Assembly: GCA_050253415.1 (NCBI GenBank)
Contig: JBFWJC010000002.1
Coordinates: forward strand, 96,001-160,000
Direction of reading: 5' to 3'
Length of the DNA stretch: 64,000 bases
Source: Pedobacter sp.
GTDB lineage: Bacteria > Desulfobacterota > Desulfuromonadia > Desulfuromonadales > Syntrophotaleaceae
In this document: piece after piece, positions 10,371-23,614 of the stretch
Numbering within the stretch: position 1 is the first letter of the stretch
How the letters are laid out: every line of letters starts with the position of its first letter
The notes under the pieces: model-generated
Seen by the model: the letters and a program-made list of their open reading frames with translations, nothing else
Told to the model about the DNA's origin: nothing
The model's database searches: none
Made by a program: the position numbers and the translations under genes

Positions 10371-10398
10371 TGCTTGTTTTCTGGGGAAATTTAAAACT

Positions 10399-10543
10399 CA
10401 GGGACACTCCCCTGTTTTCTTTGGGTCACGTGATGTGGGTGTCCGGGGGCGACTATGCGAGCGATTATCGGCATGGGGGCAGGATAAAAGAAATCTAAAT
10501 TAGGGGCAATTAAATTTTATGTAAAATAGGGGGAGTGTCCCTG
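10399..10543. mobile_element. Internally deleted (non-autonomous) copy of the RAYT-type element at 13108-13869
   Basis: Ends cagggacactcccctgtttt / aaaatagggggagtgtccctg are inverted repeats; 10421-10542 aligns closely with 13740-13861 and encodes MPIIARIVAPGHPHHVTQ on the minus strand. Confidence 0.85.
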
Positions 10544-10552
10544 GTTTGTCCT

Positions 10553-10612
10553 GGGAAATTGAGGGATACTCCCGAATGGCGCTGGTTTTCCTCTGCGGAA
10601 CGTCCCCTCTTG
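10553..10612. repeat. Mini RAYT-end/REP-like element
   Basis: gggaaattgagggatactcccgaatggcgctggtttt recurs at 12354-12390; ends in gaacgtccc, like 18479-18488. Confidence 0.6.
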
Positions 10613-10667
10613 GCAAGTGAACTCCGAAGGCATATCTGGCGGCACAATGAGTCTCTGGGATGACCGG

Positions 10668-11246
10668 TTAGCTCAAAAGAAGCATGTCGGGCAAATTTTC
10701 AAAGACAAGTCGAACGTCATCGTATTGTTCGAGGACTCTTACGACTTCCGGATGCGGATTTGCCCATATTTCGGGTAAGTCCCGTTCTTCTCTGTCATGT
10801 ATCGAAAACGCAAGAGCCTCAACAGGAGGGGTGAATTTCGCATCAATCCCTGGCTTGTTGCCTCGGGCATCGATGCGGTACCATCCATATTCCTTTATGA
10901 ACACGGCGTTCAGTCCATGCAGGCAATATGGGGGCTCTTTATCATTCACAGATAAACGTTGATAACAGAGCCCAGTCGGGATTCCGTTTTTACGTAGCAG
11001 TGCTGCTAAAAGATGACTTTTGGCATAACAATAGCCTGTGCCGTAAAGCAGAACGTCCGAGGCGCGGCAAGTCACAGGGTTTAGTTTGTAATCCCAACTG
11101 TGCTTAATTTCGTCTCGAACGAATTCAAAGCAGCGTCGTATCAGGTCCTGTTCGCTCGAAGCCCCCTTCGCCAGTTGTGCTGCTTTTCGAATAATTTCAG
11201 GATTGTCAAAATCAATATATGTACTCTTTTGAAGATATTTATTCAT
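10668..11246 (-). CDS. Transglutaminase-like (Cys-His-Asp) family protein
   Basis: GYCYAKSHLLAALLR, HGLNAV and WYRIDARG; start set at MNKYL; stop overlaps a GTTAGCT R-box-like motif. Confidence 0.88.
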   Translation of the reverse strand: MNKYLQKSTYIDFDNPEIIRKAAQLAKGASSEQDLIRRCFEFVRDEIKHSWDYKLNPVTCRASDVLLYGTGYCYAKSHLLAALLRKNGIPTGLCYQRLSVNDKEPPYCLHGLNAVFIKEYGWYRIDARGNKPGIDAKFTPPVEALAFSIHDREERDLPEIWANPHPEVVRVLEQYDDVRLVFENLPDMLLLS

Positions 11247-11354
11247 AAGTGGCCTGGCTGACATGTGGGGTGAGGGGCGCGGGGGAGCCCAGTTCGGAAA
11301 AGGTACCATACCATTTTGTGGTCTTGCATCGACTGCATTGGCCTTGTCGGGTTT

Positions 11355-12230
11355 CTATCGATTTTTTAATAGAACATCGCAAGTGATTCGAGCTACATCA
11401 GCAATAACCGCACTTTTTGTGTCGTTGGAAGCGGCAGACCCCGTATAAAACACCGTGACAATGAAAGGATCAAGTCCTCTGGGAAAAACAATTGCAACGT
11501 CGTTGCTTGCTCCATTTCCCCCGCTTCCAGTCTTGTCACCGACTACCCAAAAATTGTCGAAACCCGCTCGGAGTTTTTTCGCCCCAGTCGTATTCCCAAA
11601 CATCCATGCCTTGAGTTGTTCTTTGGATGCGGGCGAAAGGTAATCACCCATCAAAATCTTATGGAGCGTTTCAGCCATCGCCTTTGGGGTGCTGGTATCA
11701 CGTAAGTCACCTGGTATGTTCGTATTCAAAGACGGCTCATTTCGATCTAAACGCGTTGTGTTGTCGCCGATGGAGCGAAGGTACTCTGTAAGTGCTTTGG
11801 GGCCACCTATCGCATCAAGGAGTAAGTTGGCAGCCGTATTGTCGCTGTATTGAATGGATGCGGCGTTCAATTCGGACACCGTCATATGTCCTGTACTTAG
11901 GTTGTCTTTTGTAATTGGCGCATACTCAAGAATATCACTTGATTTATAAGATATTGGTCTATCCAGAGCCTCCATATTTGTATCGACTCTGGACAGAATG
12001 GCAGCCCCTAACAAAGCTTTGAACGTACTGCACATCGCAAATCGCTCGTTTTCTCGATAAGAAAGAAGCGGTGTTCCATTAGCCGAAATGACCGAAACAC
12101 CAATCCGTCCACTACTTTCATTCTCAAGCGTTGAAATTCTAGATGTAAATTCTTTCGACGGAACCGGTTCTTCCGAAGCTAATGCCAGTGATGTGAGCAG
12201 AATCATAAACAAAGTTAAGACATATCGCAT
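11355..12230 (-). CDS. bla: Class A beta-lactamase
   Basis: STFK (SxxK), SDN, EPSLN (omega-loop Glu) and KTG motifs; signal peptide MRYVLTLFMILLTSLALA. Confidence 0.95.
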   Translation of the reverse strand: MRYVLTLFMILLTSLALASEEPVPSKEFTSRISTLENESSGRIGVSVISANGTPLLSYRENERFAMCSTFKALLGAAILSRVDTNMEALDRPISYKSSDILEYAPITKDNLSTGHMTVSELNAASIQYSDNTAANLLLDAIGGPKALTEYLRSIGDNTTRLDRNEPSLNTNIPGDLRDTSTPKAMAETLHKILMGDYLSPASKEQLKAWMFGNTTGAKKLRAGFDNFWVVGDKTGSGGNGASNDVAIVFPRGLDPFIVTVFYTGSAASNDTKSAVIADVARITCDVLLKNR

Positions 12231-12353
12231 AAATTTGACTTCCTTGAGGGTAGAACGGTTTGGCCTAAACCTAACGAGCCTGTAGGAAAACCCCACAACT
12301 CTCTCGATTGATAAAAATCAGTCCCGGAATTTTATATCAAATCCATTTTTCTT

Positions 12354-12390
12354 GGGGGAAATTTAGGGATATCCGAATGGCGCTCGTTTT
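12354..12390. repeat. Solo RAYT-end/REP-like motif
   Basis: gggggaaatttagggatatccgaatggcgctcgtttt, a direct-repeat match to 10553-10588. Confidence 0.6.
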
Positions 12391-12557
12391 AAAAACAACA
12401 GGAACCCTTCGCATATTTTTCATTGCCACGAACCCTTGCTTGCGATAGCATCTCCGCCATTTCCAGCACTGCCGAATCATAGCAGCCGGTCACCCGCTCA
12501 TTTCACACGGCACGACAACGATCGCGCCGTAGCCTGTTTGCAGTTGAATTTCCTGAC

Positions 12558-13082
12558 ATGACCAACGACTCCTATATCACCTATCGCCCCATCGGCATCC
12601 TGCGATCCCCCTATACCCGGCGCATTGATGCACCTCATCAAAGCACAGTGGTGGAAGGCACTGAAACCGGAGCGTTGGCCACAGCTACCCTGGAACTTCA
12701 GGATTGGCTGGACGAGAAAGTCATCCAAGATCTGGCCGGCTTCGAGCGACTTTGGCTCATCTTCGACTTTAATCGGAGTGAAGGCTGGAAAAGCAGCGTC
12801 AAACCGCCCCGGGGTGGACCGAAGCGGGGTGTTCTGGCCACCCGCTCCCCTCATCGTCCCAATTCCATCGGCCTTTCGGCGGTGGAATTGGTCAAGATCG
12901 AAGGCAGGACGCTGCACCTTCGCGGCGTGGATCTCCTGGATGGCACCCCTGTTCTGGATATCAAACCCTACGTGCCCTACGCGGACGCCTTTCCCGACGC
13001 CAAGGCCGGCTGGATCGACGATCTGGATGAAAAGCTGGGACGTCATTCCGCGCCAGGACCTCGCAGGCCCAGGGGTGGGTAA
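12558..13082 (+). CDS. tsaA: tRNA (N6-threonylcarbamoyladenosine(37)-N6)-methyltransferase TrmO
   Basis: PIGIL, GVLATRSPHRPNSIGLS and DLLDGTPVLDIKPY motifs. Confidence 0.9.
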   Translation: MTNDSYITYRPIGILRSPYTRRIDAPHQSTVVEGTETGALATATLELQDWLDEKVIQDLAGFERLWLIFDFNRSEGWKSSVKPPRGGPKRGVLATRSPHRPNSIGLSAVELVKIEGRTLHLRGVDLLDGTPVLDIKPYVPYADAFPDAKAGWIDDLDEKLGRHSAPGPRRPRGG

Positions 13083-13107
13083 GAACGCTGTCGTGGCCTT
13101 GCCTATC

Positions 13108-13869
13108 GGGAAATTCAGGGACACTTCCCTGTTTTCTTTCTGGCCTTCCTAGTTTACTCAACCTCAATACTTGATTCAGTTGCAGTTCCATTTTTTCAAT
13201 AAATACATCTGATCCGAAGGGGCGTCCTGATCTGGTAGCTTTGCGTAGCAAATTTTCTGTTTGTTCGTCTTCTTGCGACACAAATCTGGCGTAGGCTTCC
13301 CTGTTATCCAGAGAGAGCCAAGAAGGCTCAGTCAGCAGGTCATCCTTTGTACCGTTAATATGAGTTTTTGCACTGGACCAGCGATAAATTTCTGCCCTGT
13401 CGGCAAGTCCTGCTTTCACCGGATTATTTTCGATGTAGCGTGCAACAGACCAGAGGTATGCGTCATCTTCAACGATGCAGGAAAAAAAGCGATTCTGCCA
13501 AATTCGACCACCCTGTTTCAACTTTCGATTCAAGTATTGGGTATAGACCTGAGTAGTCAGGCCGACGCCACGTGAAAGGGAGTCTTCCTTATCGGGAACC
13601 GCAAGAGGTGCACATGGTTGTCCGTCAGACAGTAGGCCCAAAGTTGTAAAGAGTGCCGCCTAGAGTATTTATGAAGGAGTTTCAGATAAGTATGGCGATC
13701 CTCATCATCGAAAAAGGTCACAGGGCGATTGTTGCCACGTTGGGTCACGTAATGTGGGTGTCCAGGGGCGACTAAGCGAGCGATTCTTTTCATAGAGGAA
13801 GGATAAAAGAAATATAAATTAGAGGCAATTAAATTTTATATAAAATAGGGGGAGTGTCCCTAATTTTCC
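13108..13869. mobile_element. RAYT-type (Y1 HUH) transposase unit with inverted ends
   Basis: Left end ggaaattcagggacacttccctgtttt matches the reverse complement of right end aaaatagggggagtgtccctaattttcc. Confidence 0.85.
13110..13793 (-). pseudogene. Frameshifted RAYT/Y1 transposase
   Basis: HYVTQRGNNR..YCLTDNHVHL in one frame; LAVPD..WQNRFFS..RYIENNPVKAGL..YRWSS in another; frameshift at ~13605. Confidence 0.88.
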
Positions 13870-13973
13870 TACAACGACACTGATGAAGGGCGACGGCACA
13901 CCGTGACAGACAGCACCGCATTTTTCGGGCAGCAGCCAGGCCCCTTTCGTCCCGCTCGATCAATTGGTTAGAC
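13869..13973 (-). other. Integron attC site 1
   Basis: Minus strand: GTCTAAC-5nt-gat[c]gagcggg[a]cga...tcgcccttcatc-GTTGTAG. Confidence 0.75.
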
Positions 13974-13975
13974 GA

Positions 13976-14547
13976 TTACTTTAAATGCAAGAAACAGTTC
14001 TTCTTCCGGCACAAACTTATGCAAGGTTTTGCTCAAAATGGTTATTGAGTTAAAGCATTTATTTACTGTTTCCTGCCCGTTGGTTAAGTAGTCTGACTAC
14101 ATTTTTAGCAAGGCTTCGGCGTCAATTTCGCCGTTTCTGAACGGTATCGCCTTAGATTTTGGATGTATAAGCTTGTTTTGTATTTTGAATAGAAAGTCTA
14201 GGGTTTCGTATGCTTGCTGGTCTTTCGGAAAGTCTTTCCTGCAATCATTTTGATTAAAACTATGCATTTAGAGAATGTATCGAGTTTGTCGATATGTTTA
14301 CTAAAAAAGGAATCGCCCCAATTTATGGAAGCGTAATCGTTGACAAAAGATTCTAGGTCCATTGCAGTGAAGACAATCGTTTTTATGCCAGAGTTCTCTC
14401 TGGATTTTCCTATTTCGAAATAAAGGTAAGAATCTTCTTCTAGGGTTGGCTCACGGTCTAGTGAAAATGACTCATCAAAAAAATTTTTTCACTTGAGGGA
14501 AATTTTATATAGGTCCACCAGAAAGAATTTTATCTTGCGTAGCTCAT
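13976..14547 (-). pseudogene. Degraded HEPN-family cassette gene, homologous to 22214-22834
   Basis: Manual translation TIVFTAMDLESFVNDYASINWGDSFFSKHIDKLDTFSK / LDFLFKIQNKLIHPKSK, with stops and frameshifts. Confidence 0.7.
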
Positions 14548-14559
14548 AATTATTCTTTC

Positions 14560-14642
14560 GTCTAAAGCCGCCAACACGTGCGGCCTTAGAGTGGAGGCGA
14601 ATCCGAAACGGAAAGACCGTCACGTACTTGGCATTGTTATGC
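14560..14642 (-). other. Integron attC site 2
   Basis: Minus strand: GCATAAC..gccaa[g]tacgtg[a]cggtctt...aaggccgcacgtgttggc..tTTAGAC (R' G mutated to T). Confidence 0.8.
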
Positions 14643-14712
14643 TGCTTGCAGACAATATTATTCTATGAAAATAGGAAAATAACGGCCAAGCATCTTAGCC
14701 AGTTTAAAGAAG

Positions 14713-15453
14713 TCATGATTTCCTAAACACTAAAACATTTGATCTAAACAATTTAAAAAGAAAAGAAATTACTTTGCTATTGCACGCTAAGGAGTATTTC
14801 CCAGAGCGGTAGTACTTTAATATCAAACTTCCGTGATTTCCTAAGTACTCAAAACCGCTTTTTTCAAATGCCTCAACAATAGCGCTATTACTTCGATATT
14901 CAGTGTATTTTCTCACATACTGTAAGGCTTCTTCAGGATTAGTTTTGAATTTCTCTCTAAAAAATCCAAATCTAGCACACATATTATAATAAATCTTATT
15001 TTTTAATATTCCACCGAACGGAACTCCTACATGAGGCTCAAGAATAGAGTATTTGGAAGGAAAGTAGTGTATTACTAATCCACCTGTTCTAAGTATGCGT
15101 GAATTTTCAGATATAAAATCATCAATGTTTTTAACATGCTCTAGCACAGCTCTGCTAGCCACAACGTTAAATATACAATCTTCGAAAGGCCAAATATATT
15201 GATCTTCCGAACTTCGAATGCTTGATCTAGAGGTAGCCGACATTCTAATCTTTTTGATGTAGCCCTCATCCAGCAGTTTTTTTGTATGCGGTCCTAGTTT
15301 AAATTCAACGTCCGTACCGAAAGTCGTATAACCCTTTTTTTTCAACTCTATGACGTTTCCGCCGTTCCCACAACCTACATCTAGGATTGAAATATCGTGT
15401 TTGCTAGTATTTGCATAGGATCGAATTAGCTCCTCTAAAATTTCAAGGTACAT
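14713..15453 (-). CDS. Class I SAM-dependent methyltransferase (cassette)
   Basis: ILDVGCGNG, VLEHV and RILRTGG motifs; AT-rich; bounded by attC sites. Confidence 0.88.
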   Translation of the reverse strand: MYLEILEELIRSYANTSKHDISILDVGCGNGGNVIELKKKGYTTFGTDVEFKLGPHTKKLLDEGYIKKIRMSATSRSSIRSSEDQYIWPFEDCIFNVVASRAVLEHVKNIDDFISENSRILRTGGLVIHYFPSKYSILEPHVGVPFGGILKNKIYYNMCARFGFFREKFKTNPEEALQYVRKYTEYRSNSAIVEAFEKSGFEYLGNHGSLILKYYRSGKYSLACNSKVISFLFKLFRSNVLVFRKS

Positions 15454-15510
15454 GCTTTCTTATTCCATAAAATATATTTTAATTACGCACTTGGCGCATT
15501 GAAAAACTTA

Positions 15511-15625
15511 GCACAACGGTTCATGATAACTGGCGGCGACGAATTGTTCGAACAACACCGCAATTTAGTTTTGCTTTTCAATTTAGCGCAGACGTATTTT
15601 CCGTCGGTTGATTAGTTTGTTAGCC
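15511..15625 (-). other. Integron attC site 3
   Basis: Plus strand gcacaac..tgataactggcgg...ccgtcggttgatta..gttagcc; strongly similar to attC 7. Confidence 0.85.
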
Positions 15626-16243
15626 CAATGGAATGTTTTGCAAAAGAGAATTTAGTGACTTTGAACCTGTAGGGCTGAGTAGCCATATGAAACCAAATAA
15701 GTTCAAAACCACGGTTACCCAAAATATGAATCTGAAGGATTCTTTTTTTGTCTTATGTCGTAAATTTTGCTGAGCGACTAATGCACCAGGCCAACCGCCA
15801 GCTAATGAAAACTTGTGCAAAGTGCTTTCCTGGATTCTCCATTTGCCTTTTTTGGAAGCGGACTTGTCCAATGCGTAGGCAATATATGTGAGGATGCTTA
15901 ACGATATGTAAATAATAAGGATGTGTATTGGAAGCTTCCCGCTTAGCACCGTAGCTGCCACAGTTCCCATAAATAGTATCGCTAATGCAAATGGAAATTT
16001 AGCCGAACTTTTGTTTTCGTACCTAACAGATCTTTCCTCTGCGCGAGTTGCGTTTATGGCACATTGACGACCTTTTTTGTCTATGGATTCACTGTAATTG
16101 ACTTTTTGACCGATCTCGGGTTGGCGGTAACGGTTGCTGAAGTCTTTGATATGGACAAAGATTTGTTTTCCACCAGAAGCGGGTAAAATAAAGCCGAATC
16201 CTTTGTCTTTGTTCCACGACGCGATGGTCCCTCTTTTTCTCAT
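15620..16243 (-). CDS. Cold-shock domain + DUF1294 protein (cassette)
   Basis: WNKDKGFGFI..IFVHI (CSD); YALDK..WRIQESTL..GGWPGA..RHKTKK (DUF1294); stop lies inside the attC R'' box. Confidence 0.92.
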   Translation of the reverse strand: MRKRGTIASWNKDKGFGFILPASGGKQIFVHIKDFSNRYRQPEIGQKVNYSESIDKKGRQCAINATRAEERSVRYENKSSAKFPFALAILFMGTVAATVLSGKLPIHILIIYISLSILTYIAYALDKSASKKGKWRIQESTLHKFSLAGGWPGALVAQQNLRHKTKKESFRFIFWVTVVLNLFGFIWLLSPTGSKSLNSLLQNIPLG

Positions 16244-16259
16244 ATCATTTTCTTTTAAG

Positions 16260-16338
16260 GGCTAACGTTAAGTTCACCGACGGCGTTCACGCCGTCCGAG
16301 CGTAGCGCAGCAAAGCGGTGTGCAACGATTGGTTAGCA
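16260..16338 (-). other. Integron attC site 4
   Basis: Minus strand: TGCTAAC-5nt-GTTGCACACCG...CGGTGAAC-5nt-GTTAGCC. Confidence 0.85.
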
Positions 16339-16369
16339 AATTTTATTAATGGTTGCACTTGTTGATGTT

Positions 16370-16670
16370 TAATCACTATTTATCATTTTTAGAAAATTTA
16401 TAATAAATTACAAAGCTAAATAGTGAAACTATCAATAAAGACAAAAATGAAAGTAAGCGACTTTTTGAGTAGTAAACTCTGGCAAGCTCCATTTGACTTT
16501 GCGTTGAATAATATGTTACCCAAGCATCACTTTCGATAAACCCAATGGAGTATTTGCTTCTATTTATTTGCCGAACTTCAAAGCCTCTACCTTCTTATCT
16601 CATCCCCTTTGAGTCCTGTCTTTTCAGCCATTGAGACAATTCATCTCTACCTGGAAATCGCTGTTGGTTT
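16370..16670 (-). pseudogene. 3' remnant of a membrane-protein cassette gene
   Basis: Open frame RGFEVRQINRSKYSIGF...LLSFLSLLIVSLFSFVIYYKFLKMINSD* ends before attC 4; 5' part missing next to the RAYT end. Confidence 0.5.
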
Positions 16671-16688
16671 GCTGGGTTTGTGGGGTTT

Positions 16689-17616
16689 GGGGTCGGACCA
16701 AGCTAACCTGTTGAATCCATAAACAAAATATCAAGAAAATAGCTGTTATTCGAGCTTAAAACCACCTTTTGGGGACCAAAATCAACCCTGTAAGGTTCAG
16801 ATGCCTCCCTCAACACACATCGGTCGGCCTCTAGTTGCTCGATTTTTCTTCCCAGCCCCTGCCTACCAAGCCTAGTCTTTATATCTTCAATAAATCCCAT
16901 ACCACCAACAGCGATACTCTCAGTCCAGAAACTTTCCCTTTGATGATTTCTGTCGCTAATGGCCGCATCGACCCATTGCCGGTGCTGCCTGGAAAACTCC
17001 TTGGAGTCCGAAAATCCGCAAAGGTTCCTTAAGCCCGCCTGGTCAATCACACCATACCGTTCAGGCGGATTCTGGATCTCGTTGTAGCCACACATATCCC
17101 ATTCCGATGGATGATTCACCACACCAGCGCGGACCATGTTGAGGTCCATATAAACAAGGCATCTGACAAGGTGTTCATTCCGCTCAACAGCTGTAGCGTG
17201 ATAACGGTCTTCCCAGAACGCTCCCTTGCGCTTTTTGCGTTGATTGAATTCTTGGGCGGTTCGGCTGGCAATCAGTTGCAGGCTTTTTGGAATGACATCC
17301 GGGCTATCATCAATGACCAATAGATGGATATGATTGGACGTGACGACATAATTTAATATTCTCAAGCCAAAGCGTTTCTTGGCTTCAAACAGCCAGGACT
17401 TCCAACGTCTTCTGTCCTTGGCGAATTTGAGGAGGAACTCTTTTTTATGGCAACGATGGGTGATATGCCATACCTGCCCGGGAATATGATGTCGGTTTGC
17501 TCTTGCCATTCTTAGACATCTCTTTTTGCCAGTGAAAACGCGTCGCTAAGATCAAATAAAGGGAAAAATAAGCCTATTTTCCGAATCATTACAGTTGTTT
17601 AGCTTGGTCCGGCCCC
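16689..17616. mobile_element. Second RAYT-type unit bounded by 18-bp inverted repeats
   Basis: ggggtcggaccaagctaa (16689-16706) vs reverse complement of ttagcttggtccggcccc (17599-17616): 17/18 match. Confidence 0.85.
16703..17509 (-). CDS. RAYT/Y1 HUH transposase (intact)
   Basis: WHITHRC, YVVTSNHIHLL (HUH), FWEDRYH and YMDLNMVRAG (catalytic Tyr). Confidence 0.92.
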   Translation of the reverse strand: MARANRHHIPGQVWHITHRCHKKEFLLKFAKDRRRWKSWLFEAKKRFGLRILNYVVTSNHIHLLVIDDSPDVIPKSLQLIASRTAQEFNQRKKRKGAFWEDRYHATAVERNEHLVRCLVYMDLNMVRAGVVNHPSEWDMCGYNEIQNPPERYGVIDQAGLRNLCGFSDSKEFSRQHRQWVDAAISDRNHQRESFWTESIAVGGMGFIEDIKTRLGRQGLGRKIEQLEADRCVLREASEPYRVDFGPQKVVLSSNNSYFLDILFMDSTG

Positions 17617-18387
17617 GACAAAACCGCTTTCTACACTTAACATTCGATCTAGCAATATTTTGTGAATGGCAGAAATTGCCATTTCGACCATTATTGCCAT
17701 CTTACCGATTTCGAGATTTAGATCGTCACTATAATCTAATATTTGCAATGCTAATATTGCACGATTGCAACTGTTTTTTAAGTCATGTAACCGACATCTT
17801 TCATCCGTTTTAAGGGTAGCGGATCGAACTGCATAAAACTCCTGTGCAGCCAGGAACAATTCTTCAATTATTTTAAAGGTATGCTTTAATTCGCGTCGAT
17901 TCAAAAGTATAGTGTGATCATGTCGAAATTGGAGATTATATGCCTTGAAATAGGCATTCCTTAGATCTGTCCATGCTGTCAAAATTGATTCTTCAGAGAT
18001 TGCAGTTCTGATATCTTCAATAGTACAATTAGTGTCTTGCTTAGAAACTATTATATGTAATCTTGTGTTAAGAGGAATTGGTAAGGACAAATAGTTAAGT
18101 GATATTAGTAAAGGATGCGCTTTGTATTGTGATTTAATTAACTCATCAATATCATCTTGAGTTATATTAAGAATTTTAAGTGACTGTTTAGCCACAAGGG
18201 AATATTTAAAGTATGTATCCATTGAGTTTGTTGGTTTACTTATTTGTTGTTCGACTTTATTTTTTGTAGCCTTTAAGGCGCGACGTCTTAAAAATTTCAA
18301 GAAATAAGAGGATGCAGAGACGACTAATACTGTCCCTGCACCGCTAAATATCCAGTCCTTTGCGTCAATAACCCAATCAAGTGACAT
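17599..18387 (-). CDS. Hypothetical cassette protein with N-terminal TM, C-terminus supplied by the RAYT inverted repeat
   Basis: AT-rich 262 aa ORF with GAGGTG RBS; last codons GAGPS* lie in the inverted repeat. Confidence 0.7.
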   Translation of the reverse strand: MSLDWVIDAKDWIFSGAGTVLVVSASSYFLKFLRRRALKATKNKVEQQISKPTNSMDTYFKYSLVAKQSLKILNITQDDIDELIKSQYKAHPLLISLNYLSLPIPLNTRLHIIVSKQDTNCTIEDIRTAISEESILTAWTDLRNAYFKAYNLQFRHDHTILLNRRELKHTFKIIEELFLAAQEFYAVRSATLKTDERCRLHDLKNSCNRAILALQILDYSDDLNLEIGKMAIMVEMAISAIHKILLDRMLSVESGFVGAGPS

Positions 18388-18449
18388 TTAATCACCTCTC
18401 GCCAATATTGACAAATTCATTCCATACTCATAGTCTTATTGTTTTAGTA

Positions 18450-18556
18450 CCAAACTTACCGGCGGCAATGGAGCGCAGGAAACGTCCCTGAATTCCTCAC
18501 TGCGGCAAATTTGGAGCGCAGCGGAAAGTTTGTCCGACACCAGCGCATTGTTATGT
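18450..18556 (-). other. Hybrid/disrupted attC site 5
   Basis: Minus strand ACATAACAATGCGCTGGTGTCGGACAAACTTTCCGCTGCGCTCCAAATTTGCCGCA, then gaggaattcagggacgttt, then a second attC-like half cctgcgctccattgccgccggtaagtttgg. Confidence 0.7.
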
Positions 18557-18567
18557 GAGGTTATCAC

Positions 18568-19431
18568 TCAGGCCACCTCTACCATCAGTGCTAAACACAT
18601 AATTCTTTCCCAATGGTTCACAAAGGGCGCAGCATCAATTGCGGGCTGCAAAATGGTGCTTTTTGCAACCTCAAGCTCCAATGGTATTTGCAACAAAGCT
18701 TGAATTTGCGCTAAATAAGTAACCAGCCTTGGGCCAGCCTCTTTTGAGAACCTTAAGTCTAAATTAAAATCATTAAAGTGTTTTTTTACTCGAAGTTTTT
18801 GGGTATCCTCCCAATGTTCTGGAGGTCTAACGAAGTACTCAATAACCCCAGGTTCACCGCCTGTATCTGCTGTATATCGAGCAAATATCCACTGCTCGTT
18901 GAAATACCGATCGTTATCCAAATATGGTTGAAGTACTTGTTCTGCTTCACTAGTGGCAAAGTTCTCTCCTTTGCCATCCATGTTGCAGTCTCTGCACGAG
19001 GGCACCAAGTTGACCGGCAATACCGAAAATTGTGGGTAGTGCGCTTTGGGCAGGAAATGATCCAAGTTTCGAGGGCGGCCGATACCACCGCAAAAAGGAC
19101 ATTTCTCGTTGGCCGCAGCCATCAAGGCATTATAAATTACGCGGGCAGGTTTATCCTCTTTTACAAAGTAAGTGCTATACAGCTTTAACAGATCCGATTT
19201 CTTTAGCTGCCCAACAACAACTGGGTCATGATCCCGGCCATTAGGAGTCGAAGGTATAGTGTACAGTTCTCCTCTAGAGGCTGACGCGGTATAGCCAACT
19301 GCACTAGCTTGCAAAAGGTGCATGTCGTTATCCACTTTTTGCAGTAATTCGTCATTGCCTGTGATTCCTTGGCGACACATTTCAATTACTTGCTCACTTG
19401 AATAAGCAGGTTGTTTAAGCTTTAACATCAA
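18568..19431 (-). CDS. HNH endonuclease (PtuB-like)
   Basis: CPFCG, LDHFLPK and NLVPSCRDCN motifs; 4-bp overlap with the ATPase gene. Confidence 0.88.
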   Translation of the reverse strand: MMLKLKQPAYSSEQVIEMCRQGITGNDELLQKVDNDMHLLQASAVGYTASASRGELYTIPSTPNGRDHDPVVVGQLKKSDLLKLYSTYFVKEDKPARVIYNALMAAANEKCPFCGGIGRPRNLDHFLPKAHYPQFSVLPVNLVPSCRDCNMDGKGENFATSEAEQVLQPYLDNDRYFNEQWIFARYTADTGGEPGVIEYFVRPPEHWEDTQKLRVKKHFNDFNLDLRFSKEAGPRLVTYLAQIQALLQIPLELEVAKSTILQPAIDAAPFVNHWERIMCLALMVEVA

Positions 19432-20945
19432 CCTGCGCTCCTATCGCGATGCGTTACAAGTGCTTTCAATAACGCACGCGCTTCTAAACCAAGTTGGTTG
19501 TTATATTCGTTCACTATCTGTTGGTATGAGCTTCCTCTCTCGACAGACTTTACCAATAAATCGTGAAAACCTGACTTCACCACTTCAAGCCCAAACACCT
19601 CTCTGGTTAAGACGCCAACATTTTCACCAAATGTCTCGATATCAGGTCTGCGCGGATCAGTGACCATACCAACCAGATTAATTTTCCAGGCACTAGACCT
19701 AGGAACTTCTTGCAGCACAACGGGTGAGTGTGTGGCTATAATTGACACACCATTTCGGTCATGAAGTAGTTCAGATAAAGCGCGAATAAAAGCTGATAGC
19801 AATGGTGGGTGAAGATGACTTTCTGGCTCATCAATAAGAACCAAAGTTTTTTCTTCAACGGTGGCAACTAGTCGAGTGATGGTTAGCAACACCACAGCAT
19901 GACCAGAGCTCATTCTTCTGATCGTTTTGTGCGCTTTTTTCGTTAGCTCCTCGCTGGAGAATTGAGTAAGGCCCTTCAATCCCATGCTTGCAAAATTTTC
20001 ATCTGATTCCAGTGTATCTATCGCTTTTAACCACCTATCGCGCTTAGAAATTTGACTAAAGCAAGATTTTAAAGCCTGGAGAAAGTCCTGGTGTATATCA
20101 TAAAGCCCCTTGAGAGTGTCACCTCCCTTTTTCAGTCCTATATAAAAATAACATGTCCCCAGAGAAGGATCTGGTTGTTCCATGGGAGGTTCAAAAGGGT
20201 CAAAAGCACTAAATGACACAGATACCAAACTACTGAAATAATCGGTATCAATAGGGCTGGCATGACAGCCCTCAACATCATAAAACTTGGCCTCTGACTG
20301 ACCTTTACTAGTGATGGCTTCGATCATCCCATTGAGGAGAGTTGTCTTGCCTACACCATTCCGGCCTATAATTGCATGAATATTAGTGCTCGGCCTTGAT
20401 TCAACCTCCACCTTAAACTTCAATTCGATACCAGAAATTTTATCTTTCCTGGGTCTAACAAACTTGAACTCAAAATTTGTCAGTGGGGGAAGGCAAGCCA
20501 ATACCCTAGAATACTGCCCTTTAATGACAGATAAGCTGACACCTCTCAGCAAGGAGGTTCGAAAAACTTCCTCCTCTTGAGCAAGCTCAATCAACTCAGG
20601 AGTTAAAACGATGTCTTTTAATGCTGTGAGTAATTTATTTCTGAACTGTACTGGCAAAGAAGATATTTTTTTGTAATAGTCAACATCTTGACCCACAGAA
20701 AAATACCCATCAGGCAACTGCTGGAAGGAATTGCTTAGTAATGAGTAAGTTGTTTTTTCTTTTGTTTGACCTTTAAAGCCAATTTTTACATTACCAAGGT
20801 CATGGAGAGACCCCTTATCGTCATGTAATTCTAGGTAAAACATGGTTACAAACGAGAAGTCATTCCAGTGGTCAATGGTTAGATAAGCAGTATTCAACCC
20901 AGACGGAGGAGTTTTTGCATCTCTTGGCAAAATAATAAAGTTCAT
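19428..20945 (-). CDS. ABC/AAA-type ATPase (PtuA-like)
   Basis: Walker A GRNGVGKT, MSSGH signature, Walker B LIDEPESHLHP, ATHSP. Confidence 0.9.
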   Translation of the reverse strand: MNFIILPRDAKTPPSGLNTAYLTIDHWNDFSFVTMFYLELHDDKGSLHDLGNVKIGFKGQTKEKTTYSLLSNSFQQLPDGYFSVGQDVDYYKKISSLPVQFRNKLLTALKDIVLTPELIELAQEEEVFRTSLLRGVSLSVIKGQYSRVLACLPPLTNFEFKFVRPRKDKISGIELKFKVEVESRPSTNIHAIIGRNGVGKTTLLNGMIEAITSKGQSEAKFYDVEGCHASPIDTDYFSSLVSVSFSAFDPFEPPMEQPDPSLGTCYFYIGLKKGGDTLKGLYDIHQDFLQALKSCFSQISKRDRWLKAIDTLESDENFASMGLKGLTQFSSEELTKKAHKTIRRMSSGHAVVLLTITRLVATVEEKTLVLIDEPESHLHPPLLSAFIRALSELLHDRNGVSIIATHSPVVLQEVPRSSAWKINLVGMVTDPRRPDIETFGENVGVLTREVFGLEVVKSGFHDLLVKSVERGSSYQQIVNEYNNQLGLEARALLKALVTHRDRSAG

Positions 20946-20976
20946 TTTTTAACACTACTTATTATCGGTGAATATC

Positions 20977-21079
20977 ACATAAATAATTGGTTTAAGCGGC
21001 AGCCCACCGCAGAACAAACTGGTTGATACTATTAGGGAAGTCCCCCGCTTCTTCTGTCCGCCTGAAATTCTTGTTAGCT
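20977..21079 (-). other. Integron attC site 6
   Basis: Minus strand: AGCTAAC-5nt-ttt[c]aggcgg[a]cag...ctgccgcttaaa..tTTATGT. Confidence 0.82.
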
Positions 21080-21083
21080 TTAC

Positions 21084-22085
21084 TTATTCCCAAGACTCGC
21101 CATTTAATTTGTTTGCTAGGTCCCTCGAATTAGTACATTCACCCACTAAACCATAAAAATACTTTTTTGATTGAAACATGCCCCCACTTGAGACTTTTCT
21201 GAAGTTTGTTTCTGAGCCATTAGACAGAATAAAAACTTGGAGGGGGGTCTTTTCGTTTTCTGCGGTCCTGTGCGCAGATGCGCTGATATGACCAATTGCA
21301 ATCTCTTCCAGTTTTTTATTTGATATATCTTTGTTTTTCCACTTCAACTTGACGTTTGACATATTTACGTCAACTGAAACAACCGCATCTATTTCGTATA
21401 TTTTTGATACGTTTTTATTGGCGTATGGGCCAAAGAACTTGGCTCGCCGATGTCTATAGGCCCCACCTTTGTCTGGGCACATATATGCTCCATTTTTAAC
21501 CTCATGTAGAGTTCCTCTGCAATTTACTACTTCCAAAAGTTTTTTCCATCTAGGCAAGCGTCCACTTCTATCTAAGTAGTTTTCGAACTCTTCAAGGTGG
21601 CTTTTAAAAACATCAGAAGACCGCGCTCCTTTTAAGCATTTCATAAATTCTTCAAAAGAAATAGCCTGTAGAATTATGCCTGACTCCTGCGCCACTGCTC
21701 TATCTTTAGAGAATCTTTCTTCATATTCTTCTGTTTGAAAATTTGATATTAGGAAAAGGATTTTTGTGCCGTTCTCAGAGCTAAGGCCATCAATATGCCT
21801 CTTAATCTGGCTTGAATAAAACCAGTCGGTGAGTTTTGTTTCGAAAAATATGGAAAAAGCCTTTTGGCTAATTGAAAGGTCCGGAATACTTTTTACCTCT
21901 TTATGTTGCTGGGCAAATGTTGGCCCTACCATTAGGTCAACATCACCAGATACCATTGATGTGATGGTTTCTTCGAAACTTGCTGGATTCTCAGAATAGA
22001 GCAACTTAAGAATGAGACCACAGTAATTAGTAAGTGAATTCTCTTTTTGGCGATAATCAGAAAAGAGTGAAATTTCTCGCCCCAT
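21084..22085 (-). CDS. PD-(D/E)XK-like nuclease fold protein (cassette)
   Basis: ENSLTN..IPDLSI..FFETK..QIKRH motif pattern; start set at MGREISLF, inside the cassette boundary. Confidence 0.7.
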   Translation of the reverse strand: MGREISLFSDYRQKENSLTNYCGLILKLLYSENPASFEETITSMVSGDVDLMVGPTFAQQHKEVKSIPDLSISQKAFSIFFETKLTDWFYSSQIKRHIDGLSSENGTKILFLISNFQTEEYEERFSKDRAVAQESGIILQAISFEEFMKCLKGARSSDVFKSHLEEFENYLDRSGRLPRWKKLLEVVNCRGTLHEVKNGAYMCPDKGGAYRHRRAKFFGPYANKNVSKIYEIDAVVSVDVNMSNVKLKWKNKDISNKKLEEIAIGHISASAHRTAENEKTPLQVFILSNGSETNFRKVSSGGMFQSKKYFYGLVGECTNSRDLANKLNGESWE

Positions 22086-22109
22086 TTTTTTCCTTTTAAT
22101 TGTTTTGAA

Positions 22110-22227
22110 CGCTAACTGTTTATGATAACCGGCGGCGACGAACTGCTCGAACACCACCGCAATTTTAGATTTTGTTTCTCAATTTTGCACAGAAGCGTTT
22201 TCCGGCTGGTTGATTATGTTGTTAGGT
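22110..22227 (-). other. Integron attC site 7
   Basis: Minus strand: ACCTAAC..taat[c]aaccagc...gccggttatca..GTTAGCG. Confidence 0.85.
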
Positions 22228-22834
22228 TTTTCATTTTCAAACCAATGTCAGCATCTAAAGTTTTTAGATTTTCAATTATAAATTCAATGTCTTCTATTGT
22301 TTCTTCTACAGAAATTTCAGACGGGTGCAAAGTGACAAAGTCTTTCATTCTTTTGGAGTAAAACTCTTTTGTTTTTGGGTGGACAAGGCTATTTCTTTTG
22401 TCAAATAACTTTCTTGTCCAGTTTAATAATTCGTCATTTTTTTTAAGTTTTACCTCGAGACACATTAATAAGATTAACGACAGTTTTTCTGTAATGCCTA
22501 CACGCTCTAGATTCCTTTTGTAAAATTCACTACCAAGTCTCACTGCGCCGTAGTAATTTATTAAGCCTTCTACAGTCATGCATGCAAACAAAATTGAAGA
22601 TGTTGCGTATCTGTAGGCTTCTTCTCGTAGCCTATCGGTTTTGTAGCAAACAAATGATTCAATATTTTCCTGTCCAATGTCATAATTTTCTTTTCTTATT
22701 TTTTCCTCTTCTTCCGACAGAGTGGCTAATAATTTATTGTATTCATCTTTAAACTTGTACGCGGACTCATAATAAAAACGATGGGAACTTACCCACGCAC
22801 CGTCGGTGGCATAGGGGCGAATGTTTTTTGTCAT
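22214..22834 (-). CDS. HEPN-domain protein (cassette)
   Basis: Helical protein with an upstream Glu helix (TVEGLIN) and an RxxxxH motif (RNSLVH). Confidence 0.7.
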   Translation of the reverse strand: MTKNIRPYATDGAWVSSHRFYYESAYKFKDEYNKLLATLSEEEEKIRKENYDIGQENIESFVCYKTDRLREEAYRYATSSILFACMTVEGLINYYGAVRLGSEFYKRNLERVGITEKLSLILLMCLEVKLKKNDELLNWTRKLFDKRNSLVHPKTKEFYSKRMKDFVTLHPSEISVEETIEDIEFIIENLKTLDADIGLKMKNLTT

Positions 22835-22842
22835 ATTTTAAA

Positions 22843-22946
22843 AGCTAACGTTGTGGTAACCGGCTGCGTCGTGCCGGAACAAATTAGTAGAGACCTTTAC
22901 GGGAGTCGCCCCTGTATCACCAGTCCGGTTGACCTATTGGTTGGGA
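22843..22946 (-). other. Integron attC site 8
   Basis: Minus strand: TCCCAAC-5nt-GGT[C]AACCGG[A]CTG...CAGCCGGTTACC-5nt-GTTAGCT; perfect stem with two canonical extrahelical bases. Confidence 0.92.
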
Positions 22947-23075
22947 ATGGTGTAGGGCTTTGGTCTCATCATCATTCCAGACTCTGGGAATGATTTGAAG
23001 GTGCATGAGAAAACTCAACCCCTGATCATCAAAATATAAGCTTTCTCGCATCTTTCAATGTCGGATATCTTCAAG

Positions 23076-23408
23076 TCACTGAGCTCCTAAACGGACTATG
23101 CCATAATCAACTCCACCACGGGGCGAAGGGGCAAGTTTGACTTCATAAGTAACTTTCTTTCCATTACTATCAATATTCCAGTGCTCAACATATGATGACC
23201 CCTCTTTTCCAACCGTGTTAGCTGAAAGCAATTTGGGGTGAGCGTCTCCTCCTGCTGCTGACTCATATATGCCAATCATCCGCATTACATCAGACTGCAA
23301 TTTTGCATCAGCCACCGTTCCGTGAGATTGTGGGGCTACTGCACAGCCAGCAGCAATGAGTGCAATAAATACAAATGCAATGGGAAGTACTTTAAGAATC
23401 AACCTCAT
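23076..23408 (-). CDS. Small lipoprotein
   Basis: MRLILKVLPIAFVFIALIAAGC signal with lipobox; GGAGG RBS. Confidence 0.75.
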   Translation of the reverse strand: MRLILKVLPIAFVFIALIAAGCAVAPQSHGTVADAKLQSDVMRMIGIYESAAGGDAHPKLLSANTVGKEGSSYVEHWNIDSNGKKVTYEVKLAPSPRGGVDYGIVRLGAQ

Positions 23409-23614
23409 GCCATCCTCCAAGTTAAAGTGTTCATGCCCAACATTGTTGATAAGCGGAAAACTGTCCATCATATTACCCTTATAGAATGGACTATTTTCCA
23501 TTTATTGAATTATTAAAGGGGTAAAAGTGGAAAATATCGCCTTGATTTTTCCACCTGCTGATAAAGCCATGCCTGCATAGTTGCGCCGAGCAAGTTGCCT
23601 TGGTAGTCGGCCAT

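What the first reader, a model, noticed from the sequence alone, without database searches (positions are those of the whole stretch)
10380..18560. RAYT (Y1 HUH) transposase ends repeatedly sit at attC sites and cassette breaks: candidate integrase-independent cassette capture/remodelling system
Seen: (i) the right end of RAYT unit B (..gtgtccctaattttcct) runs straight into the R' box (acaac, 13871) of attC 1; (ii) attC 5 is two attC halves joined by the RAYT-end motif gtccctgaattcc; (iii) RAYT unit D sits between a 3'-truncated and a 5'-truncated cassette gene; (iv) a deleted RAYT copy and mini ends lie next to the transglutaminase and bla genes; (v) no intI in the window. Known: HUH Y1 transposases cut and join ssDNA at hairpins, and attC sites recombine as ssDNA hairpins. 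Inference: these RAYT units target or mobilise attC cassette DNA and assemble a gene-capture island. I know of no description of this link; the attC-targeting elements I know are IS1111-attC and group IIC introns.
Basis: partly seen in the sequence, partly recalled or inferred. Interest (0 to 1): 0.88.

Follow-up and report, generated by a model that had tools for sequence, protein, structure and literature searches.

The report
Hairpin transposons nesting in integron arrays
Two small selfish DNA elements, each a single-strand-cutting transposase gene framed by hairpin repeats, have settled in and beside an integrase-less integron gene-cassette array; they favour such arrays but show no sign of building them.

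Summary
The sequence features are mostly real. Window 13,869-23,545 is an integrase-less attC cassette array (CALIN). A model built only from attC sites beside the genome's true integron integrase, on another contig, finds 6 sites here and 59 genome-wide.

Unit B (13,111-13,867) is a frameshifted RAYT gene with GGGACAC inverted ends, lying 1 nt from an attC R' box. Unit D (16,689-17,616) is an intact RAYT-like gene with GGGGTCGGACC ends, inside the array.

The link to arrays goes beyond this window:
- B-type hairpins lie near attC sites at 4 of 8 loci in this genome, against 2.8% expected.
- Close homologues lie within 10 kb of attC sites at 8 of 24 loci (B) and 9 of 20 loci (D).
- All 19 such genes are co-oriented with the cassettes.

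Against a capture system:
- The genome has an integrase.
- Arrays exist without RAYT-B, and RAYT-B exists without arrays.
- Junction positions vary from 8 to 1,343 nt.
- Ordinary DDE transposases are also array-enriched (5 of 40 loci).

One published case already places an IS200/IS605 element beside a CALIN. Earlier notes of this scan report REP/RAYT inside integron arrays on other DNA.

Verdict: these are selfish REPtron-like elements colonising permissive arrays. Integrase-independent capture is not supported.

The parts
10394..10547 (-). Unit A: internally deleted copy of the B-type RAYT unit. Both GGGACAC ends are kept and most of the gene is lost.
   Evidence: D1: 127 nt at 88% to 13,740-13,866; D4; I17: 14-nt perfect inverted repeat; blastn.
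10553..10595 (.). Solo REP-like end of a sister variant (GGGATAC... followed by a GAATGGCGCT flank).
   Evidence: D14, D12; the same flank variant borders RAYT-B units in L052 and L059.
12346..12392 (.). Second solo REP-like end of the same variant, between bla and TrmO.
   Evidence: D12, D14.
13111..13867 (-). Unit B: RAYT (REP-associated tyrosine transposase) unit. The gene is split by a frameshift (13,557-13,793 and 12,961-13,641). Inverted ends are aaattcaGGGACAC... and ...GTGTCCCtaatttt.
   Evidence: Y1_Tnp on both pieces; D4, I4. The intact orthologue in the sister species scores 83.9 bits on NF047646 (cut-off 80) and is 95% identical at the same locus.
13869..13973 (-). attC 1, the last (distal) attC of the array. 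Its R' box abuts unit B, and homology with the sister species ends here.
   Evidence: R1 24.4 bits, E 8e-4; (homology ends at 13,871).
13869..23545 (-). Integrase-less attC cassette array (CALIN), AT-rich, with cassette ORFs on the - strand.
   Evidence: GC 0.36-0.45; 6 R1 hits, all on the - strand; this 9.7 kb is replaced by about 1.08 kb in the sister species.
14556..14640 (-). Degenerate attC-like site. R'' and L boxes are visible, and R' has TTT in place of GTT.
   Evidence: By eye; not scored by R1.
15511..15625 (-). attC site.
   Evidence: 34.9 bits, E 1.3e-6.
16260..16338 (-). attC site.
   Evidence: 25.7 bits, E 3.5e-4; closely resembles an intI-linked attC on C1.
16689..17616 (-). Unit D: intact RAYT-like Y1 HUH gene (16,703-17,509, 268 aa) between 18-nt inverted repeats (GGGGTCGGACCAAGCTAA type).
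   Evidence: Y1_Tnp 3.2e-10; I5; NF047646 68.5 bits, below the cut-off of 80; same ends in 20 homologous units.
17599..18387 (-). Orphan cassette ORF whose last codons and stop lie inside unit D's inverted repeat. No attC of its own follows.
   Evidence: (no homologue in 232 other genomes of the order).
18440..18560 (-). Disrupted attC ('attC 5'). It has an attC-like 5' half, a duplicated 14-nt motif around a roughly 27-nt insert resembling a B-type end, and a degenerate R'.
   Evidence: by eye; I14, 15 of 17; not scored by R1.
20981..21079 (-). attC site.
   Evidence: 26.4 bits, E 2.4e-4.
22110..22227 (-). attC site.
   Evidence: 25.9 bits, E 3.1e-4; D2: repeat shared with 15,515-15,566.
22843..22946 (-). 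attC site, the best match to the intI-linked family.
   Evidence: 93.1 bits, E 3e-22.

Best explanation
The island is an ordinary integron cassette array without its own integrase (a CALIN). It is one of about eleven attC clusters in a genome that keeps a complete integron integrase on another contig, and that integrase is the likely builder and shuffler of the cassettes.

Two unrelated families of REPtron-like elements have settled in and beside the array. Each is a Y1 HUH (RAYT-type) gene bracketed by short hairpin-forming inverted ends.
- The B family is a conserved unit of about 735 bp with GGGACACTCCCC ends.
- The D family is a unit of about 920-975 bp with GGGGTCGGACCAAG ends.

The inferred mechanism is as follows. 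The Y1 enzyme nicks and rejoins single-stranded DNA at its own end hairpins and inserts copies or solo hairpins into exposed single strands. Copies persist in cassette arrays because arrays are dispensable and their only non-coding space is the attC sites and short spacers. This is why ends so often touch or split attC sites. Later deletions or recombination at the copies leave truncated cassettes.

Shown here: the anatomy, the enrichment near attC sites, the co-orientation and the variable junctions. Inferred: the enzymatic activity, persistence by tolerance, and the origin of the breakpoints.
For: Array and integrase:
- intI on C1 scores 447.6 bits, with a classical array running to the contig end.
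- R1, built only from those 15 sites, finds 6 attC sites in the window and 59 in the genome, in about 11 clusters.

Element anatomy:
- All RAYT-B units found with both ends across 59 loci share the same ends and a 722-748-bp spacing. Tandem solo ends lie beside them, and the flanks are diverse.
- D units share their ends across 20 examined units.
- Family scores: NF047646 gives 83.9 bits for the B orthologue and 68.5 bits for D; Pfam Y1_Tnp matches both.

Enrichment:
- There are 12 exact B-type 12-mers in the genome, and 8 lie within 3.5 kb of an attC. That is 4 of 8 separate loci, against 2.78% of the genome (binomial 4e-5).
- In the sister genome G070, 2 of 3 hairpin clusters lie near attC sites.
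- In the 22 attC-bearing genomes, 8 of 24 RAYT-B loci have an attC hit within about 10 kb.
- For RAYT-D, 10 of 40 loci have a hit, including 9 of the 20 same-order loci.

Tolerance and no fixed target:
- Gaps from the upstream attC run from 8 to 1,343 nt.
- D copies lie inside a toxin ORF, after a stop codon, or with an ORF reading into the end.
- DDE (rve) transposases, treated by the same procedure, have attC hits at 5 of 40 loci.

Independence of the two systems:
- G094 has 12 attC hits but no RAYT-B and no B-type hairpin.
- 26 of 54 genomes with close RAYT-B homologues have no R1 hit.

Age of the junction: the sister species G326 has the same RAYT-B at the same locus with different cassette content.
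Against: Tolerance alone may not explain everything.
- Y1 loci are 3.5 to 5.7 times more often near attC sites than rve loci (Fisher p 0.059 for B, 0.009 for D same-order, 0.012 pooled).
- In this genome 0 of 7 rve hits lie near attC sites.
- All 19 array-linked RAYT genes in other genomes are co-oriented with the attC top strand (binomial 4e-6). The rve control shows 4 of 5 co-oriented.
- Several ends lie strikingly close to attC boxes: window unit B at 1 nt; C1:343,817 just after the R' of a mini-attC; D units 18-19 nt after an R' (L109, L076); a third Y1 unit 27 nt after an R'.
- RAYT units tend to sit at the distal end of arrays, as at 4 arrays in this genome.

Limits of the tests:
- Related genomes are not independent samples.
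- The D and rve sets come from different genomes.
- R1 is tuned to this genome's attC families and misses degenerate or half sites.
- No enzymatic activity was tested.
Confidence: 0.58

Rival explanations
1. Active preference without capture. These Y1 elements preferentially insert, in one orientation, into the single-stranded, hairpin-rich DNA of cassette arrays, in or next to folded attC sites. That would make them a third kind of integron-associated parasite beside IS1111-attC elements and group IIC-attC introns.
For: - Enrichment exceeds the DDE control (8 of 24 and 9 of 20 against 5 of 40).
- 19 of 19 array-linked genes are co-oriented.
- B-type hairpins or ends lie inside the attC loop region at C1:344,498, at window 18,440-18,560 and in G070 just after L''.
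- Ends lie 1-27 nt after R' boxes in five cases and three Y1 families.
- The known attC-targeting family type (IS110 Transposase_20) is found only inside arrays here, 2 of 2 hits, so the arrays do attract structure-specific elements.
- AI notes of this scan report REP/RAYT inside integron arrays in other phyla (unchecked).
Against: - No fixed insertion point was found.
- D copies interrupt ORFs.
- Most homologous loci have no attC nearby: 49 of 59 for B and 30 of 40 for D.
- B against rve is not significant (p 0.059).
- The rve control is also mostly co-oriented (4 of 5).
- In compact cassettes nearly all non-coding DNA is attC, so neutral survival predicts the same junctions.
Confidence: 0.25
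2. Integrase-driven linkage. Either the RAYT units ride as cassette content moved by IntI, or their end hairpins serve as secondary IntI sites where cassettes are deposited, so that CALINs are seeded beside RAYT units.
For: - Homology with the sister species ends within about 3 nt of the G|TT crossover point of attC 1, directly beside the RAYT-B end. Both species carry different cassettes on that side of the same RAYT-B.
- RAYT units sit at the distal end of four arrays in this genome.
- Co-orientation is the rule for cassette genes.
Against: - No RAYT unit was found neatly bounded by attC sites on both sides at cassette spacing.
- D units interrupt cassette ORFs, so they arrived by transposition.
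- Flanks between R' and the ends are not conserved between cases.
- No GTT-type secondary site is evident in the sister species' empty flank.
Confidence: 0.1
3. The RAYT enzymes themselves cut and join attC hairpins, and capture or mobilise cassettes without an integrase, thereby assembling the island.
For: - There is no intI in the window.
- HUH enzymes and attC sites both work on folded single strands (PMC8266576, passages read).
- RAYT-D marks breakpoints in two genomes.
- PMC7923331 raises the same speculation for an IS200/IS605 element beside a CALIN.
Against: - A complete intI and a decayed one exist in the genome.
- The window's attC sites are of the same families as the intI-linked ones.
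- Arrays occur without RAYT-B (G094), and RAYT-B occurs without arrays.
- Unit B is a pseudogene here.
- No cassette was seen flanked by RAYT ends.
Confidence: 0.04

Closest known systems
REPtrons: RAYT / TnpA-REP genes flanked by inverted REP hairpins (PMC6006769, abstract read; PMC8266576, passages read)
   Same: A Y1 HUH gene sits between inverted hairpin repeats, with extra solo hairpins nearby. The B orthologue passes NCBIfam's RAYT model, and B sits at the same locus in two species.
   Different: There are only 12 exact hairpin copies in the genome, and most lie in or beside attC arrays. The D family is patchy: its closest relatives (67-81% identity) are in other orders. It is multi-copy and often decayed, which is IS-like rather than domesticated, and it scores below the RAYT cut-off.
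[quoted passage not shown]
   Same: A Y1 HUH transposase lies next to the distal attC of an integrase-less array. That paper's authors also noted the clustering of elements that need single-stranded DNA.
   Different: The elements here have terminal inverted repeats and no tnpB. The IS200 model scores 28.7 bits against a cut-off of 55. No conserved 4-5-nt target was seen. Here the pattern recurs over several loci and genera rather than in one case.
IS1111-attC elements (IS110 family) and group IIC-attC introns (recalled; group IIC is also named in PMC7923331)
   Same: These are mobile elements found in cassette arrays in a fixed orientation. IS110-type genes lie inside two other arrays of this genome.
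   Different: Those elements insert at one defined position of the attC. The RAYT units here lie at variable positions and use a different enzyme.
CALIN: cluster of attC sites lacking an integron integrase (definition recalled from Cury et al. 2016; the paper is named only in an AI note)
   Same: There are six or more attC sites on one strand with no intI within the window.
   Different: Nothing unusual about the array itself; a full intI lies elsewhere in the genome.

Membership tests
RAYT / TnpA-REP (REPtron) | Y1 HUH nuclease domain that scores as RAYT. | tested here: met
   Pfam Y1_Tnp: D 3.2e-10; both B pieces match; B orthologue 4.5e-15. NF047646: B orthologue 83.9 bits (cut-off 80); D 68.5 bits, below the cut-off. 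So the feature is met for B and is borderline for D.
RAYT / TnpA-REP (REPtron) | HUH motif and catalytic tyrosine present. | tested here: inconclusive
   H-V-H (B) and H-I-H (D) are visible in the translations. A tyrosine lies in the expected C-terminal helix region. Which tyrosine is catalytic rests on recall, not on an alignment to a solved structure. The window's B copy is frameshifted.
RAYT / TnpA-REP (REPtron) | Gene flanked by REP hairpins in inverted orientation. | tested here: met
   I4, I5; B units across 59 loci; D units.
RAYT / TnpA-REP (REPtron) | REP sequence dispersed at high copy number over the genome. | tested here: not met
   There are 12 exact B-type 12-mers in 4.1 Mb. D-type ends occur at about 4 loci.
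RAYT / TnpA-REP (REPtron) | Single-copy, vertically inherited (domesticated) gene. | tested here: inconclusive
   B lies at the same locus in G326, but several decayed copies exist. D is patchy, multi-copy and decayed, so this feature is not met for D.
IS200/IS605 | Scores as an IS200/IS605 TnpA. | tested here: not met
   NF033573 gives 28.7 bits for D against a cut-off of 55, and no hit for B.
IS200/IS605 | No terminal inverted repeats; insertion 3' of a fixed 4-5-nt target. | tested here: not met
   Both families have clear terminal inverted repeats. No shared flank motif was seen in the printed flanks.
Integron cassette array (CALIN) | Several attC sites (R''-L''...L'-R' fold with a longer L'') on one strand. 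| tested here: met
   R1 was built from intI-adjacent sites only. It gives 6 hits on the - strand. An extra base in L'' is seen in the seed alignment.
Integron cassette array (CALIN) | No integron integrase adjacent. | tested here: met
   TIGR02249 hits lie on C1 and at C2:470,321, outside the window.
attC-targeting mobile elements (IS1111-attC, group IIC-attC introns) | Insertion at one defined position of the attC. | tested here: not met
   Gaps run from 8 to 1,343 nt. Insertions occur in ORFs, spacers and attC loops.
attC-targeting mobile elements (IS1111-attC, group IIC-attC introns) | Fixed orientation relative to the attC. | tested here: met
   19 of 19 array-linked RAYT genes lie on the attC top strand. 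The control rve set shows 4 of 5.

The most novel reading that the evidence does not exclude
These hairpin-ended Y1 (RAYT-like) families have a real, strand-specific affinity for the folded single-stranded DNA of integron cassette arrays. They would then be a third class of integron-associated element, beside IS1111-attC and group IIC-attC introns. They would help decide where integrase-less arrays end and break. The reverse is also possible: their end hairpins act as landing sites where the integrase deposits cassettes.
Probability: 0.25. Interest if true: 0.7.

Novelty: new variant of a known kind. Interest (0 to 1): 0.42.

Why it matters
Integron arrays are major stores of adaptive and resistance genes. 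How integrase-less arrays (CALINs) arise, break and decay is poorly understood.

If hairpin-dependent Y1 elements preferentially live in arrays, they would be a regular source of attC loss, cassette truncation and array fragmentation. They would also show two single-strand-hairpin systems interacting.

If the arrays are only permissive sinks, the case is a useful caution. Ends touching attC sites are expected wherever non-coding space is almost entirely attC.

Tried and rejected
- A simple motif-plus-duplex scanner for attC sites was too strict or too noisy. I replaced it with the covariance model R1.
- Single-strand folding of the six candidate sites gave z-scores from -2.05 to +1.08, with no clean attC fold. 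It was not informative.
- nhmmer profiles of attC halves were too insensitive. They missed even attC 1 beside unit B, so I dropped them.
- Excising unit D in silico over a grid of boundaries restored no ORF longer than 330 aa. A simple insertion into one gene is therefore rejected.
- The idea that the upstream 385-435-nt gaps of several D units are one conserved 'RAYT cassette' is rejected. The upstream flanks share no similarity, and only two downstream flanks do.
- A GTAG tag, as in classical REPs (PMC3733652, one passage read), precedes the hairpin at two junctions only. It is absent from the other copies, so I did not take it as a feature of this family.
- I considered explaining co-orientation by shared replication bias (PMC5371416 and PMC5027513, passages read). 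GC skew suggests the + strand is the leading strand here. [quoted passage not shown] The simple version of this idea therefore does not fit, and I leave it open.
- Literature searches found no paper describing enrichment of RAYT/REP elements in attC arrays. The only find was the single ISHahl1 case. The library holds open-access papers only, and I opened no supplements.

Full report
WHAT IS THERE

The window is G000:C2:96,001-160,000. Between about 13.9 and 23.5 kb the G+C content falls from about 0.55 to 0.36-0.45. Nearly all ORFs in that stretch lie on the - strand.

The genome has a bona fide integron integrase on another contig, at C1:1,750,302-1,751,246. It scores 447.6 bits on TIGR02249, against a cut-off of 265. 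Small co-directional ORFs follow it, separated by gaps of about 100 nt, up to the contig end.

I aligned 15 attC sites from that integrase-linked array only and built a covariance model, R1. The seed alignment shows the usual layout: an R''-type box ending in AAC, an L'' one base longer than L', and an R' box starting with GTT.

R1 gives these results:
- In the window it finds six sites, all on the - strand: 13,869-13,973, 15,511-15,625, 16,260-16,338, 20,981-21,079, 22,110-22,227 and 22,843-22,946.
- In the genome it finds 59 sites in about eleven clusters.

The island is therefore an integrase-less cassette array (CALIN) of the same attC families as the integrase-linked array. R1 does not score them even with filters off.

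THE TWO TRANSPOSASE UNITS

Unit D (16,689-17,616):
- It carries an intact 268-aa gene (Pfam Y1_Tnp, 3.2e-10).
- The gene lies between 18-nt inverted repeats (I5).

Unit B (13,111-13,867):
- It carries a Y1 gene split by a frameshift.
- It has inverted ends with a GGGACAC core (D4 and I4).
- Unit A (10,394-10,547) is an internally deleted copy of it.

Family scores:
- The intact orthologue of B in a sister species passes NCBIfam's model for REP-associated tyrosine transposases (83.9 bits, cut-off 80).
- D scores 68.5 bits on that model, below the cut-off, and only 28.7 bits on the IS200 model.

Across 59 loci of close B homologues, the unit is a conserved block of about 735 bp. It always has the same ends and often has tandem solo ends beside it, and its flanks are otherwise unrelated. 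D homologues form 918-978-bp units with GGGGTCGGACCAAG-type ends. Both are therefore REPtron-like: a Y1 gene framed by inverted hairpin repeats.

(i) Holds. One base separates unit B's extended end (13,867) from the attC at 13,869.

(ii) Holds in part. The site starts like an attC. It then carries an insert between two copies of a 14-nt attC motif, and the insert resembles B's end at 15 of 17 bases (I14). An unambiguous B-type hairpin interrupts an attC at C1:344,498.

(iii) Holds in part. ORF 17,599-18,387 runs into unit D's repeat. Excising D restores nothing. No homologue exists in 232 other genomes of the order to prove truncation.

(iv) Holds. However, the transglutaminase, class A beta-lactamase and TrmO genes are 96% conserved at the same locus in sister species G326. 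They are backbone, not captured cargo.

(v) True only for the window.

IS THE LINK MORE THAN CHANCE?

In this genome:
- The 12-mer core of the B-type hairpin occurs 12 times, where about 0.5 is expected.
- Eight copies, at 4 of 8 separate loci, lie within 3.5 kb of an R1 hit.
- Only 2.78% of the genome lies that close to an R1 hit, giving a binomial probability of 4e-5.
- A third Y1 unit with its own 23-nt ends sits 27 nt after an attC at C2:473,578-473,668, and a B-type hairpin is inserted into it.

In the complete sister genome G070, 11 copies form 3 clusters, and 2 of those clusters lie near attC sites.

RAYT-B across the class:
- 297 of 401 genomes have a RAYT-B match at E<=1e-10.
- I fetched all 59 loci of matches at E<=1e-60. 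Ten have an R1 hit at E<=0.1, and seven of those are strong.
- 28 of the 54 genomes involved have any R1 hit, and 22 have three or more.
- Within those 22 genomes, 8 of 24 loci are positive.

RAYT-D across the class:
- 65 of 401 genomes match at E<=1e-30. The closest relatives are in other orders, and many copies are decayed.
- Of the 40 best loci, 10 have R1 hits. Nine of these fall among the 20 loci from the same order.

In all 19 clearly positive loci, the RAYT gene lies on the same strand as the attC top strand.

CONTROLS AND COUNTER-EVIDENCE

rve-type DDE transposases:
- In this genome, 0 of 7 lie near attC sites.
- In the 22 attC-bearing genomes, the top 40 rve loci handled in the same way gave R1 hits at 5 loci, 3 of them strong. 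Four of those five are co-oriented.
- Fisher tests give p 0.059 (B against rve), 0.009 (D same-order against rve, from different genome sets) and 0.012 (pooled).

Arrays therefore attract or retain insertion sequences in general, and the excess for Y1 units is modest.

IS110-type genes, the family type known to target attC sites, occur only inside arrays here, at 2 of 2 hits.

The junctions are not fixed:
- The gap from the upstream attC to the unit ranges from 8 to 1,343 nt.
- One D copy splits a RelE/ParE-like toxin ORF.
- One D copy lies 45 nt after a stop codon.
- Two have an ORF reading into the repeat.
- Two lie 18-19 nt after an R' box.
- One is followed by an attC 3' half.

The two systems are separable. 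G094 has 12 attC hits but no RAYT-B and no B-type hairpin. Conversely, 26 of 54 RAYT-B genomes have no R1 hit.

COMPARATIVE ANATOMY OF THE LOCUS

Sister species G326 has the same backbone and an intact RAYT-B at the same place, 95% identical. However, the 9.7-kb array (window 13,872-23,545) is replaced by about 1.08 kb holding a partial attC, one ORF and a solo hairpin.

Homology ends at 13,871, within about 3 nt of the crossover point of attC 1. So the RAYT-B unit at the array's distal edge predates the split of the two species, and cassette content has turned over beside it, as expected for integrase-driven exchange.

A lipoprotein cassette at 23,076-23,501 recurs in G326 at 91% identity, with a RAYT-D unit 36-45 nt after its stop codon. 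The DNA beyond that unit is unrelated. RAYT-D thus marks a breakpoint there, as it does in the window.

READING

The best-supported account is that these are selfish REPtron-like Y1 elements that have colonised integron arrays. Because cassettes are compact, attC sites and short spacers are almost the only places where an insertion is harmless. That predicts ends touching or splitting attC sites.

Nothing indicates that the RAYT enzymes capture cassettes. A genuine structural preference for array DNA remains possible, at about one chance in four. The following keep it alive:
- the excess over the DDE control;
- the strict co-orientation;
- the recurrence in three Y1 families;
- the distal-end bias.

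A replication-bias explanation of the co-orientation (PMC5371416 and PMC5027513, passages read) does not obviously fit the GC skew of this window.

PRIOR WORK

[quoted passage not shown] Its authors speculate about integrase-free CALIN transfer and about clustering of elements that depend on single-stranded DNA.

PMC8266576 (passages read) only draws an analogy between TnpA-REP and IntI. PMC6006769 (abstract read) classifies the Y1 family.

Searches found no paper showing systematic enrichment.

Earlier AI notes of this scan (unchecked) describe REP/RAYT elements inside integron arrays in a cyanobacterium, an Omnitrophota genome and a Bacteroidota genome. The scan has therefore met this pattern before on other DNA.

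Noticed in passing
G000:C16:1814-2047 and G000:C1:339845-340090 (outside the window): The only two IS110-family (Transposase_20) hits of the genome both lie inside attC arrays. They are probably IS1111-attC-type elements.
   Followed up: no
G000:C2:473680-474352 (outside the window): A third Y1-like unit with 23-nt inverted ends starts 27 nt after an attC R' box. Its HUH position reads H-F-N, and a GGGACAC hairpin is inserted between its core and a C-terminal helix-turn-helix-like tail.
   Followed up: partly
G000:C2:470321-470557 with attC hits at C2:471387-473668: A fragment of an integron integrase (95.7 bits, model positions 228-306) lies beside a short attC array. This looks like a decayed second integron.
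   Followed up: no
window 11355-12296 (-): A class A beta-lactamase gene (NF033103, 326.7 bits, cut-off 200) sits between a transglutaminase-like gene and TrmO. It is 96% conserved at the same locus in sister species G326, so it is chromosomal rather than a cassette.
   Followed up: partly
window 18568-20945 (-): A two-gene cassette holds a 505-aa AAA_21/AAA_15 ATPase and an overlapping 287-aa protein with no family hit. This is the layout of a possible defence pair.
   Followed up: no
L023, L044, L057, L017 and other RAYT-B loci: The outer 8-12 nt of the RAYT-B ends are often repeated in tandem two to five times just outside the unit, as if left by repeated cutting and rejoining.
   Followed up: no
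L099 (G028:C1:1431500-1451499), about 16,216-16,680: A RAYT-D unit interrupts the toxin gene of an antitoxin/RelE-ParE-like toxin cassette, directly after that cassette's upstream attC.
   Followed up: no
G070:C1:2853198-2860138: Five copies of the B-type hairpin core cluster within 7 kb, with no R1 attC hit nearby. This is an unexplained REP cluster outside any detected array.
   Followed up: no
window 23076-23501 (-) and L108 (G326:C27): The same lipoprotein cassette (91% identity over 392 nt) occurs in arrays at different loci in two species of the genus.
   Followed up: partly
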